From: Escherichia coli
GTDB lineage: Bacteria; Pseudomonadota; Gammaproteobacteria; Enterobacterales; Enterobacteriaceae
Reading direction: 5' to 3' (one strand)
NCBI RefSeq assembly: GCF_024502345.1
Contig: NZ_JALDNN010000001.1
DNA length: 64,000 nucleotides
Shown here: positions 35,874 to 38,443 of the stretch, piece by piece
How positions within the stretch are numbered: the stretch's first letter is position 1
How the letters are laid out: the number at the start of each line of letters is the position of its first letter
Notes under the pieces: model-generated
The model's input: only the letters and a program-made list of their open reading frames with translations
Told to the model about the DNA's origin: nothing
Databases searched by the model: none
Program-made: the position numbers and the translations under genes

Positions 35874-38135
35874 ATGCGTAAATATCCTTTAAGTTTACTG
35901 AAGGATAAAAATATTGTGACTTTTTTTGATTTCTGGGGAAAAACCCGACGCGGCGAGAAAGACGGGGGCGACGACTATCACCTTCTTTGCTGGCATTCGC
36001 TGGATGTAGCCGCGATGGGCTATTTAATGGTTAAAAGAAATTGCTTCGGGCTGGCTGATTATTTTCGTCAATTAGGGATTTCTGACAAGGAACAGGCGGC
36101 TCAATTTTTCGCCTGGTTGCTGTGCTGGCACGATATTGGAAAATTTGCCCGCTCTTTTCAACAACTTTACCTGCCCCCTGAACTCAAGATTCAGGAAGGT
36201 GCCAGAAAAAATTACGAAAAAATCTCTCATTCAACGCTGGGTTACTGGCTGTGGAATTATTATTTAAGTGAATGTGAGGAGTTGCTTCCTTCATCTTCAC
36301 TCTCTTCTCGTAAACTTACACGTGTAATAGAGATGTGGATTTCCATAACTACCGGGCATCATGGTCGACCACCTGACCGTATTGATGAGCTGGATAATTT
36401 TCTGCCTGAAGACAAAGCTGCCGCGCGAGATTTTCTCCTTGAAATCAAGGCACTGTTTCCGCTCATAGAGATTCCCACATTCTGGGATGATGACGAGGGC
36501 GTTGAACTTTTAAAACAACTTTCCTGGTATATCTCTGCAACAGTCGTACTCGCAGACTGGACGGGTTCGTCAACGCGATTTTTTCCACGCGTCGCACAGA
36601 CAATGAATATTAAAGATTACTGGCAGAAAACTTTAGTTCAGGCTCAAAACGCCTTAACCGTCTTTCCTCCAAAAGCAGAAACCGCACCTTTCACCGGAAT
36701 TAATACGCTGTTTCCTTTTATTGAGAATCCGACACCGTTACAGCAAAAGGTGCTGGATCTGGATATCAGCCAGCAAGGACCGCAGTTATTTATTCTGGAA
36801 GATGTGACTGGCGCAGGTAAAACAGAAGCGGCGCTTATCCTGGCGCACAGGTTGATAGCTGCGGGGAAAGCTCAGGGGCTGTTTTTTGGTCTGCCAACAA
36901 TGGCAACGGCCAATGCCATGTACGATCGGCTGGTCAAAACCTGGCTTGCTTTCTATTCGCCAGAATCCCGCCCCAGCCTGGTGCTGGCACATAGTGCCCG
37001 CACATTAATGGACCGCTTTAATGAATCACTCTGGTCTGGTGATTTAGTCGGGTCAGAAGAACCGGATGAACAAACGTTCAGTCAGGGATGTGCGGCCTGG
37101 TTTGCCGACAGTAACAAGAAGGCGTTGCTGGCTGAAATTGGCGTCGGCACGCTGGATCAGGCGATGATGGCGGTGATGCCGTTCAAACATAATAATCTGC
37201 GGCTTCTGGGGCTGAGTAACAAAATCCTGCTGGCTGATGAGATCCACGCCTGTGACGCTTACATGTCGTGCATTCTTGAAGGGTTGATCGAGCGGCAGGC
37301 GCGTGGCGGAAACAGCGTTATTTTGCTTTCTGCCACGTTATCTCAACAGCAGCGCGACAAACTCGTCGCTGCCTTTGCGCGGGGTACAGAGGGCCAGCAA
37401 GAAGCTCCGTTCCTGGAAAAGGATGATTACCCCTGGCTGACGCATGTCACGAAATCCAATGTGAACTCACACCGGGTAGCGACGCGCAAAGACGTTGAGC
37501 GTAGCGTCAGCGTGGGTTGGCTTCATAGTGAACAAGAGTGTATTGCGCGTATCGAATCGGCGGTAAGTCAGGGGAAATGCATCGCCTGGATCCGGAATTC
37601 TGTCGATGACGCTATTAAGGTTCATCGTCAGCTGCTTGCCCGCGGCGTCATTCCTGCTTCCAGCCTTTCACTTTTTCATAGCCGCTTTGCTTTTAGCGAT
37701 CGCCAGCGAATTGAAACGGAGACACTGGCACGCTTTGGTAAAGAAGATAGCTCACAGCGTGCCGGAAAAGTCCTTATTTGTACTCAGGTATTAGAGCAGA
37801 GTGTCGATTGTGACCTGGACGAAATGATCTCCGACCTGGCCCCTGTTGATTTGCTGATTCAGCGAGCAGGACGATTACAGCGGCATATCCGCGATATTAA
37901 TGGTCAGTTACTGGAAGTGCGTGCCGGTGTGTATGTTGGTGATACATCAAAACGTATTCGGGAGATGATCTGGCAGCAAATTACCCAACTGGCTGGTTGC
38001 GGAAATGTGGTGATGGCCTGGGCGACCAATACCGAGTCGGGTTTTGAATTTCAGACCTGGGGAGAAAACAGACGTATTCCGGTGGATTTGGATGGGTTAC
38101 GTTTGGTTTCTTTTCTTCCTGTTGATAATCAATAA
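35874..38135 (+). CDS. cas3: Cas3 HD-nuclease/helicase (type I-E-like), possibly lacking the C-terminal domain
   Basis: 753-aa ORF; HD motifs (HSLDVAA, WHDIGKF, TGHHG), helicase Walker A (VTGAGKTEA), DEIH box, SAT, motif [11 protein letters not shown]; stop codon immediately upstream; followed 96 bp later by CRISPR repeats. Confidence 0.85.
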
Positions 38136-38231
38136 GTTAGACGTTCTTTAAAAATAAGGAAATGTTTTAATTTAGTTGGTAGATTGTTGATGCGGAATAA
38201 ATTTGTTTAAAAACAGTTATGTATGCTTAGT

Positions 38232-38443
38232 GTGTTCCCCGCGCCAGCGGGGATAAACCGGGGCCGACGGTCGCAGTATTGGACCATTTCAAGTGTTCCC
38301 CGCGCCAGCGGGGATAAACCGACTCTTACATGCTTAATCAGATTCTGGCGGATGTGTTCCCCGCGCCAGCGGGGATAAACCGGGCGCACTGGATGCGATG
38401 ATGGATATCACTTAGAATTCCCCGCCCCTGCGGTAGAACTCCC
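38232..38443 (+). CRISPR. short type I-E CRISPR array: 3 intact repeats, 3 spacers and a degenerate terminal repeat
   Basis: GTGTTCCCCGCGCCAGCGGGGATAAACCG at 38232, 38293, 38354; 32-bp spacers; degenerate repeat gaattccccgcccctgcggtagaactccc at 38415-38443; truncated leader 38136-38231. Confidence 0.92.

What the first reader, a model, noticed from the sequence alone, without database searches (positions are those of the whole stretch)
35874..38443. Type I-E CRISPR-Cas locus reduced to cas3 plus a 3-spacer array; Cascade and adaptation genes absent
A 753-aa ORF with full HD-nuclease and SF2-helicase motifs ends at 38135. Only 96 bp later the first of three perfect 29-bp I-E repeats begins, with 32-bp spacers and a degenerate terminal repeat abutting the 3' end of iap. 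The 96 bp share blocks (agttggtagattgt, ttaaaaa, gttatgt) with the leader of the array at 18010, so they look like a shortened leader. In canonical I-E loci cse1-cse2-cas7-cas5-cas6e-cas1-cas2 sit between cas3 and the leader; none is present in this window. Only about 85 residues follow helicase motif VI, whereas my recollection is that I-E Cas3 proteins carry a much longer C-terminal domain, so the gene may be 3'-truncated by a deletion running from inside cas3 into the leader. Whether this is an inert remnant or a stand-alone nuclease-helicase still expressed next to a leader and array is open.
Basis: partly seen in the sequence, partly recalled or inferred. Interest (0 to 1): 0.7.

Follow-up and report, generated by a model that had tools for sequence, protein, structure and literature searches.

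The report
Decayed E. coli CRISPR locus, cas3–cas2 fusion

Summary
The sequence features are real, but the 753-aa ORF is not simply a truncated Cas3. Residues 1-679 are Cas3, with the HD domain and the helicase core through motif VI. Residues 680-753 are Cas2 residues 24-97, identical to intact E. coli Cas2e. Against intact E. coli I-E1 loci, one 6,297-bp deletion joins cas3 nt 2037 to cas2 nt 70 across a 2-nt TA microhomology (window 37909-37910). It removes the Cas3 C-terminal domain, casA, casB, cas7, cas5, cas6e, cas1 and the first 23 Cas2 codons.

The 96-bp leader is full length and identical to that of an intact strain. It is not shortened.

The array (spacers 1, 2 and the oldest) is an internal collapse of an 11-spacer array found in relatives that carry the identical fusion protein. 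No new spacers were gained.

RefSeq annotates the same junction as pseudogenes. Twenty of 5,426 complete E. coli genomes carry this or a nested variant, and 18 of those are out of frame.

Best reading: an inert decay remnant with two orphan arrays.

One loose end remains. The identical junction occurs in three allelic and array backgrounds. I could not tell spread by recombination from a breakpoint hotspot.

The parts
35874..37910 (+). cas3 5' fragment. It covers nt 1-2037 of the 2700-nt E. coli I-E1 cas3, encoding Cas3 aa 1-679 (HD nuclease plus RecA1/RecA2 through motif VI). The linker and C-terminal domain (aa 680-899) are deleted.
   Evidence: blastn to intact loci L005 and L004 gives 97.4% identity over 2037 nt, ending exactly at nt 2037. 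tblastn gives Cas3 aa 1-679 at 96.5%. NCBIfam NF007248 matches positions 4-665 of 878 and scores 403.9, below its curated cut-off of 569. TIGR01596 matches in full and TIGR01587 matches 2-324 of 358. PDB Cas3 alignments stop at query residue 671.
37909..37910 (+). Deletion junction. The dinucleotide TA is shared by cas3 (nt 2036-2037) and cas2 (nt 68-69). 6,297 bp are missing relative to intact loci.
   Evidence: Three-way alignment of the window, intact cas3 and intact cas2. The blast segments overlap by 2 nt.
37911..38135 (+). cas2 3' fragment (nt 70-294 including the stop), read in frame with cas3. It encodes Cas2e aa 24-97. Codons 1-23 are lost.
   Evidence: PDB E. coli Cas2 (4p6i and others) residues 22-95 match query residues 678-751 at E about 1e-32. 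TIGR01873 Cas2e matches positions 20-87 of 87. tblastn shows 100% identity to Cas2e aa 23-97 of strain A31.
38136..38231 (+). Complete CRISPR-I (CRISPR2.1) leader of the E1 type, 96 bp.
   Evidence: It has the same length as in intact loci (L005 19735-19830). It is 100% identical to ACN001 and differs at 2 nt from A31.
38232..38443 (+). CRISPR-I array. Three perfect 29-nt repeats, three 32-nt spacers and a degenerate terminal repeat (38415-38443).
   Evidence: Relatives that encode the identical fusion protein (L007, L008) have spacers 1, 2, eight further spacers, then the same last spacer. The window's array is therefore an internal repeat-to-repeat deletion.
18010..18832 (+). CRISPR-II (CRISPR2.3) array with 14 repeats and 13 spacers, in the same orientation, with its own leader upstream. 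It is also orphaned by the deletion.
   Evidence: Leader similarity is shown.
19287..19425 (+). Degenerate CRISPR2.2 units, 0.5 kb downstream of CRISPR2.3.
   Evidence: The arrangement matches the two-array CRISPR-II locus described in PMC3903273.

Best explanation
This is the iap-cysH CRISPR-I locus of an E. coli strain carrying the 'E1' variant of type I-E, after a single 6,297-bp illegitimate deletion.

What the deletion did (shown):
- It joined cas3 nt 2037 to cas2 nt 70 across a 2-nt TA microhomology.
- It removed the Cas3 linker and C-terminal domain, the cas3-casA intergenic region, casA, casB, cas7, cas5, cas6e, cas1 and the first 23 codons of cas2.
- By chance of phase it created an in-frame 753-aa Cas3(1-679)::Cas2(24-97) chimera.
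- The leader and array were untouched. The array later collapsed from at least 11 spacers to 3 by repeat-repeat recombination.

Consequences (inferred from established type I-E biology):
- No Cas6e means no crRNA maturation.
- No Cascade means no target recognition or Cas3 recruitment.
- No Cas1 means no spacer integration.
- A Cas2 fragment lacking its first strand and helix is unlikely to fold.
- Both I-E arrays in the window are therefore orphans, and the chimeric ORF is a pseudogene that happens to remain open.
For: Junction mapping:
- The junction is mapped to the nucleotide against two intact loci.
- The C-terminal 74 aa are Cas2 by PDB, NCBIfam and tblastn.
- Intact Cas3 of this variant is 899 aa and intact Cas2 is 97 aa.
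- No other cas gene of either E. coli I-E variant is in the window.
- The leader is identical in length and sequence to intact strains.

Annotation and population evidence:
- PGAP annotates the same junction in RefSeq genomes as two pseudogenes, 'missing C-terminus' and 'missing N-terminus'.
- NF007248 scores below its curated cut-off.
- Of the 20 complete genomes with this or a nested junction, 17 (type b, 8 nt more of cas2) and 1 (type c, cas3 nt 1557) are out of frame. The fusion reading frame is therefore not generally maintained.

Array evidence:
- Within the window's own lineage, arrays differ only by loss of internal spacers. The leader-proximal spacers are identical, so there has been no acquisition since the deletion.

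Context:
- Other decay forms are common at this locus: a cas3::cas7 deletion, frameshifts and internal stops. Truncated cas3/cse1 has been reported in ETEC (PMC6301781), and incomplete operons have been reported in uropathogenic strains (PMC12736100).
Against: - The ORF is intact, with complete HD and helicase motifs, its native start codon and native upstream region. Expression and residual ATPase or nuclease activity are therefore not excluded.
- The in-frame form of the junction is found in three different allelic and array backgrounds (window, L001, L015). This could hint at retention.
- The rest of the genome could not be searched for Cascade or cas1-cas2 supplied in trans.
- The consensus scan found no plus-strand promoter-like site in the 192 nt upstream of cas3 or in the leader. 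That is not informative either way.
Confidence: 0.85

Rival explanations
1. The Cas3(ΔCTD)-Cas2(ΔN) chimera is an expressed, functional stand-alone nuclease-helicase. It might act on R-loops or plasmids independently of Cascade, or be a I-F-like Cas2/3 analogue, and be retained for that reason.
For: The ORF is open, with intact HD and motifs I-VI and the native 5' region. The in-frame junction is present in at least 3 backgrounds, and the exact protein is found on 16 public contigs.
Against: - The Cas3 C-terminal domain is missing, and so are the first 23 residues of Cas2.
- The domain order is the reverse of I-F Cas2/3, and there is no Cas1 partner.
- 18 of 20 complete genomes with related junctions are frameshifted.
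- PGAP calls the junction genes pseudogenes.
Confidence: 0.07
2. The arrays are still used. Cascade, Cas6e and Cas1-Cas2 are supplied in trans from another I-E operon elsewhere in the genome or on a plasmid.
For: None positive. The leader and repeats are intact, and only 64 kb of the genome is visible.
Against: - In 5,426 complete E. coli genomes, every match to this cas3 or cas2-leader sequence is chromosomal and none is on a plasmid.
- cas-E genes are described only at the iap-cysH locus (PMC3903273).
- The window lineage shows no spacer gain, only loss.
Confidence: 0.04
3. One reading: the deletion runs from inside cas3 into the leader, leaving a truncated Cas3 and a shortened leader.
For: Only the short distance between the stop codon and the first repeat.
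Against: The right breakpoint is at cas2 nt 69/70. 225 nt of cas2 and the full 96-bp leader are present and match intact loci at 99.4-100%.
Confidence: 0.01
4. On origin: the cas3-nt2037/cas2-nt68 junction is a recurrent breakpoint hotspot generated independently in several lineages. It is not a single ancestral deletion spread by homologous recombination.
For: - The identical type-a junction lies in three backgrounds. These differ at 24 sites within 190 nt upstream and at 13 sites from +27 downstream. Their arrays share only the universal oldest spacer.
- L001 is 2 mismatches in 4.2 kb from intact strain 600468.
- Type-c L003 has 0 mismatches from intact ACN001 and a subset of its array, yet uses the same cas2 breakpoint within 1 nt.
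Against: - There is no direct or inverted homology at the breakpoints beyond chance (Smith-Waterman score 7 against a random mean of 7.9).
- There is no E1/E2 module boundary at that position.
- Types b, a and c can be derived from each other by nested slips: 8 nt between TA..TA, and 481 nt at TTAC.
- L002 (type b) and L015 (type a) share the same IS421 insertion but have unrelated arrays, which shows that recombination does reshuffle arrays around a shared junction.
- cas3 is visibly mosaic, with short conversion patches.
Confidence: 0.35

Closest known systems
E. coli CRISPR-I locus, cas-E1 variant ('arrangement A' of Almendros et al. 2014, PMC3903273). Examples are strains A31, ACN001 and 600468.
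   Same: Same chromosomal site (cysH - hok/sok - cas3 ... leader L1 - CRISPR2.1 - iap), the same repeat, and the same universal oldest spacer. cas3 is 97.4% identical, cas2 plus leader 99.4-100% identical.
   Different: 6,297 bp are missing (cas3 3' end through cas2 5' end). cas3 and cas2 are fused in frame, and the array is reduced to 3 spacers.
Other partially deleted or decayed E. coli I-E operons. These include the RefSeq pseudogene pairs cas3/cas2e in strains 23CRST035, NCTC_13148, 1303 and AR_0069; cas3::cas7 in strains 2e and 07B21CPO001; truncated cas3/cse1 in ETEC (PMC6301781); and incomplete operons in UPEC (PMC12736100).
   Same: Internal deletions with the left end in the 3' half of cas3, and orphaned arrays. 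23CRST035 and NCTC_13148 have the nucleotide-identical junction.
   Different: The window's lineage has a different cas3 allele, including a divergent block at about nt 300-900 that no complete genome matches better than 97.3% overall. It also has different spacers.
Type I-F Cas2/3 (natural Cas2-Cas3 fusion)
   Same: Cas2 and Cas3 sequences in one polypeptide.
   Different: I-F has a complete Cas2 at the N-terminus, a full Cas3 and a Cas1 partner. Here a Cas2 fragment lacking 23 N-terminal residues sits at the C-terminus of a Cas3 lacking its C-terminal domain, there is no Cas1, and the fusion results from a recent deletion.
Orphan CRISPR arrays in cas-less E. coli. Strains lacking cas-E genes are described in PMC3903273. 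That phylogroup B2 and B/BL21 strains are of this kind is from my own recollection.
   Same: I-E arrays retained without the machinery.
   Different: [quoted passage not shown] Here the complete leader and cas3/cas2 fragments remain.

Membership tests
[quoted passage not shown] | Cascade genes cse1/casA, cse2/casB, cas7, cas5, cas6e | tested here: not met
   tblastn with E1 and E2 versions of all five finds nothing in the 64-kb window. They lie inside the mapped 6,297-bp deletion. The rest of the genome is not visible.
[quoted passage not shown] | Adaptation module cas1 plus complete cas2 | tested here: not met
   cas1 is absent. Only Cas2 aa 24-97 are present, fused to Cas3.
[quoted passage not shown] | Full-length Cas3 (HD + SF2 helicase + C-terminal domain) | tested here: not met
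   HD and helicase are present, but aa 680-899 are missing. NF007248 scores 403.9 against a cut-off of 569 and covers positions 4-665 of 878.
[quoted passage not shown] | 29-nt I-E repeat array with leader | tested here: met
   Three perfect repeats, 32-nt spacers and a complete 96-bp leader.
Cas3 (HD nuclease / DEAH helicase) | HD domain and helicase motifs I-VI | tested here: met
   TIGR01596 matches 1-178 of 178 (E 7.6e-26). TIGR01587 matches 2-324 of 358 (E 5.3e-64). GAGKT, DEIH, SAT and QRAGRLQR are readable in the translation.
Cas2e | Complete ferredoxin-like fold (about 94-97 aa) as a separate protein that pairs with Cas1 | tested here: not met
   TIGR01873 matches only positions 20-87 of 87. 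PDB Cas2 residues 22-95 are matched. The N-terminal 23 residues are deleted and there is no cas1.
I-F-type Cas2/3 fusion | N-terminal complete Cas2 fused to full Cas3, encoded next to cas1 and csy genes | tested here: not met
   The order is reversed, both parts are truncated, and the sequence is I-E.
Deletion-derived pseudogene | Collinear with intact orthologous loci except for one gap; not maintained in frame in related carriers | tested here: met
   PGAP pseudogene flags.
Deletion-derived pseudogene | No expression or function | not testable with these tools
   Needs RNA, protein and phenotype data.

The most novel reading that the evidence does not exclude
The exact cas3-nt2037 / cas2-nt68 junction is produced repeatedly and independently in different E. 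coli lineages. That would mean a site-preferring mechanism that switches off type I-E immunity while leaving an in-frame Cas3-Cas2 chimera, possibly retained for a Cascade-independent role.
Probability: 0.12. Interest if true: 0.55.

Novelty: already known. Interest (0 to 1): 0.18.

Why it matters
It matters little for mechanism. This is another example of the well-documented erosion of type I-E CRISPR-Cas in E. coli, and RefSeq's pipeline already flags the same junction as pseudogenes.

- Annotation: an open 753-aa 'Cas3' ORF beside a perfect leader and array can be miscalled as a minimal or stand-alone system. Checking the C-terminus shows it is a Cas3::Cas2 deletion chimera.
- Strain typing: the junction is a clean lineage or recombination marker.
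- Open point: the identical junction occurs in several allelic and array backgrounds. If that reflects a hotspot and not recombinational spread, it would bear on how E. coli sheds CRISPR immunity.

Tried and rejected
1. Shortened-leader idea. Rejected: intact loci have the same 96 bp.
2. Homology-driven deletion. Smith-Waterman comparison of ±40 nt around the two breakpoints, direct and inverted, scored 7. Random position pairs gave a mean of 7.9, so there is no signal.
3. Breakpoint as the boundary of the E1/E2 cas-module exchange. Rejected: E1 and E2 similarity shows no visible boundary across the cas1 end, cas2 and the leader.
4. IS-mediated deletion with precise excision. I considered TA-duplicating IS630-like elements, YTAR-targeting IS5, and TTAC-targeting IS200/IS605, because junction types a and c read TTAC. 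The target motifs do not fit both ends and type b lacks the motif, so I dropped this as numerology. The target preferences are from memory.
5. IS421 upstream of cas3 as a common cause. It is present in L002, L015 and L003 but absent from the window and L001.
6. Metagenome scan for junction types a and b. One hit (L016), which is a contig joining the CRISPR-I leader and first repeat to the CRISPR-II trailer. It is probably a repeat-collapse assembly artefact and is uninformative for arrays.
7. Scan of GTDB species-representative genomes for the junction: no hit.
8. The three spacers against 50,697 phage records: no match. Plasmids were not searched.
9. Literature. I found no paper describing this cas3::cas2 junction. 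Touchon et al. 2011 is not held in the library.
10. Structure prediction of the chimera was not run. Only close homologues were in hand, so the model would have been uninformative about folding of the Cas2 fragment.
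Full report
**Observation.** The region reads as the first-stage reader described.
- An ATG-initiated ORF of 753 aa runs from 35874 to 38135 on the plus strand.
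- Exactly 96 nt later the first of three perfect 29-nt repeats (GTGTTCCCCGCGCCAGCGGGGATAAACCG) begins. The repeats start at 38232, 38293 and 38354, with 32-nt spacers.
- A fourth, degenerate unit lies at 38415-38443 (17 of 29 matches), 20 nt before the stop of the convergent iap gene.
- The flanking genes are cysJ/I/H, hok/sok, iap and cysD/N. This is the CRISPR-I (iap-cysH) locus of Escherichia coli. Core genes next to it are up to 99.3% identical to complete E. coli genomes.

**What the ORF is.**
- Searches against solved structures and NCBIfam split the protein in two. Residues about 14-676 are Cas3. Residues 678-751 match residues 22-95 of E. coli Cas2 (4p6i, 5ds4, 4mak and others; E about 1e-32; TIGR01873 positions 20-87 of 87).
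- In the Cas3 part, the HD domain TIGR01596 is complete. The helicase core TIGR01587 covers positions 2-324 of 358. The full-length model NF007248 covers only positions 4-665 of 878 and scores 403.9, below its 569-bit cut-off.
- tblastn with the eight Cas proteins of an intact E1-type locus (strain A31) and an intact E2-type locus (strain AHM8C212RI) finds only Cas3 aa 1-679 (96.5% identity) and Cas2 aa 23-97 (100% identity) in the whole 64-kb window. It finds no CasA, CasB, Cas7, Cas5, Cas6e or Cas1.
- Intact Cas3 of this variant is 899 aa and intact Cas2 is 97 aa.

**Mapping the deletion.**
- Against intact loci L005 (A31) and L004 (MFDS1006657), window 35874-37910 aligns to cas3 nt 1-2037 at 97.4%. 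Window 37909-38240 aligns to cas2 nt 68-294 plus the leader and the start of the first repeat at 99.4%. The two segments overlap by the dinucleotide TA.
- The missing segment is 6,297 bp. It comprises cas3 nt 2038-2700, the cas3-casA intergenic region, casA, casB, cas7e, cas5e, cas6e, cas1e and cas2 nt 1-69.
- Because 2037 nt is 679 codons and cas2 nt 70 starts codon 24, the fusion is in frame: 679 + 74 = 753 aa.
- The leader is not shortened. Intact loci also have 96 bp between the cas2 stop and the first repeat (L005 19735-19830). The window's leader is identical to that of intact strain ACN001 and differs at two positions from A31.
- The similarity to the sequence upstream of the second array at 18010 is real. 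It is the normal resemblance between the CRISPR2.1 and CRISPR2.3 leaders (PMC3903273).

**Population context.**
- The exact 753-aa protein is in public data on 16 contigs. These come from two NCBI draft genomes, human-gut metagenomes and Logan assemblies, and the protein carries no name or accession.
- In that lineage the arrays are either [1, 2, oldest], as in the window, L006 and L011, or [1, 2, eight more, oldest], as in L007 and L008. The window's array is therefore an internal collapse. The leader-proximal end has not gained spacers, as expected without Cas1.
- Among 5,426 complete RefSeq E. coli genomes, 19 carry a cas3-cas2 junction that covers the query. None is identical to the window; the best is 92.8%.
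- Two of these (23CRST035 = L001, NCTC_13148 = L015) have the nucleotide-identical 'type a' junction. PGAP annotates them as a cas3 pseudogene 'missing C-terminus' plus a cas2e pseudogene 'missing N-terminus'.
- Seventeen, mostly livestock isolates with near-identical coordinates (for example E. coli 1303 = L002), have 'type b'. This has the same cas3 end but 8 more nt of cas2 (TCTGGCTA), which shifts the frame.
- A twentieth genome, AR_0069 (L003), has 'type c'. Here cas3 nt 1557 is joined at the same cas2 point within 1 nt (TAC microhomology), and it is also out of frame.
- Other decay routes appear at the same locus:
  - a cas3(nt 1764)::cas7 deletion in two genomes;
  - a cas7 internal stop;
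  - a cas3 frameshift plus a cas7 stop;
  - a frameshift about 11 codons after codon 679, near the C7 run that follows nt 2037.
- Published surveys report truncated cas3/cse1 in ETEC and incomplete I-E operons in uropathogenic strains (PMC6301781; PMC12736100). IS-driven rearrangements of this locus are also reported (PMC3903273). I found no paper describing this particular junction.

**Mechanism and function.**
- Shown: the anatomy of the deletion, the chimeric reading frame, the intact leader, the loss-only behaviour of the array, and the out-of-frame state of most related alleles.
- Inferred from established type I-E biology:
  - pre-crRNA cannot be processed without Cas6e;
  - targets cannot be recognised, nor Cas3 recruited, without Cascade;
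  - spacers cannot be integrated without Cas1.
- Also inferred, and recalled from the published Cas3 and Cas1-Cas2 structures without being checked here: a Cas3 lacking its C-terminal domain lacks the lid of its ssDNA channel. A Cas2 lacking residues 1-23 lacks the first β-strand and most of the first helix of its ferredoxin fold.
- The most likely status is an inert remnant. The ORF is still open because the deletion is recent and happened to be in phase.
- Expression was not testable. The simple promoter scan found no plus-strand promoter-like site in the 192 nt upstream of cas3 or in the leader, which says little either way.
- The three spacers have no match in the phage collection.

**Unresolved point.** The type-a junction occurs in three backgrounds.
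- These are the window lineage, L001 and L015.
  - The window lineage has a cas3 3' 1.1 kb like A31 and a cas2-leader like ACN001.
  - L001 is 2 mismatches in 4.2 kb from intact strain 600468, and its array is a subset of that clade's array.
  - L015 shares an IS421 insertion with type-b L002, but its array is unrelated.
- The backgrounds differ at 24 sites within -190 to -101 of the junction and at 13 sites from +27. Their arrays share only the universal oldest spacer.
- Type c arose in an ACN001-like clone. It has 0 mismatches in cas3 and a subset of the ACN001 array, yet uses the same cas2 breakpoint.
- I found nothing in the sequence that would make these positions hot. Breakpoint homology is at the chance level, and there is no E1/E2 module boundary there.
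- A single origin remains plausible. The three types could derive by nested slips: b to a by loss of 8 nt between TA..TA, and a to c by 481 nt at TTAC. Homologous recombination running up to the heterology could then re-flank the junction. Consistent with this, cas3 is visibly mosaic, and L002 and L015 show that arrays are swapped around a shared junction.
- I put about 0.35 on independent recurrence.
- Scans of JGI metagenomes and of GTDB species representatives added one uninformative chimeric contig and no hits.

**Verdict.** It is wrong on where the deletion ends and on the leader. The feature is a known kind of thing, a decaying E. coli I-E locus already flagged as pseudogenes in RefSeq. 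It has low intrinsic interest apart from the curiosity of the repeated junction.

Noticed in passing
window 35388-35681: A hok/sok toxin-antitoxin module lies between cysH and cas3. Rfam sok matches at 106.7 bits (35388-35544, +), and the 50-aa Hok ORF ends at 35681. PMC3903273 reports hok/sok in all strains except those with the E2 cas variant, so this marks the locus as E1-type.
   Followed up: partly
window 18010-18832: In the CRISPR-II array (14 repeats), the four leader-proximal repeats start GTG and the ten older ones start GAG. Spacer 2 is 33 nt, and two repeats end in A where the others end in G. None of its spacers, and none of CRISPR-I's, matches elsewhere in the window at 5 or fewer mismatches.
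   Followed up: partly
window 19287-19425: Three degenerate repeat-like units lie 0.5 kb downstream of the main CRISPR-II array, consistent with a decayed CRISPR2.2 array.
   Followed up: no
window ~36170-36780 (cas3 nt ~300-900): 50 of the 52 differences from the closest intact cas3 alleles are packed into this 600-nt block (about 8% divergence). The remaining 1.1 kb up to the junction differs at 2 sites. No complete E. coli genome matches the window's cas3 better than 97.3%. This looks like an imported recombination block and not post-deletion decay.
   Followed up: partly
L001 4210-4212, L015 4411-4413, L002 4211-4219, L003 4002-4004 (junctions): Three nested junction variants share breakpoints. 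The in-frame type a occurs in three allelic and array backgrounds. I could not tell whether this reflects one origin plus recombination or a hotspot.
   Followed up: partly
L002 824-1936, L015 1025-2137, L003 982-2094: An IS421 (IS4-like) element is inserted between hok and cas3 in three of the deletion-carrying loci. L002 and L015 have the same site and orientation; L003 has the opposite orientation. It is absent from the window, from L001 and from the four intact loci examined.
   Followed up: partly
L018 4482-7128 and L019 4482-7128: A different internal deletion fuses cas3 (nt 1764) to cas7e in two genomes. Their arrays match intact strain ACN001, with one spacer missing in L018. This shows repeated independent erosion of the operon within one clone.
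   Followed up: no
L016 (metagenome contig OGYE01009568.1) 3007-3630: The contig joins the CRISPR-I leader and first repeat directly to the trailer and degenerate units of CRISPR-II. It is either a repeat-collapse assembly artefact or a real recombination between the two arrays 20 kb apart.
   Followed up: no
L005 ~13236-13242 (cas3 nt ~2061-2067, just 3' of the breakpoint): A C7 homopolymer run lies about 25 nt downstream of the cas3 breakpoint in intact alleles. A 692-aa public Cas3 (P0012) changes frame about 11 codons after codon 679, close to this run.
   Followed up: no
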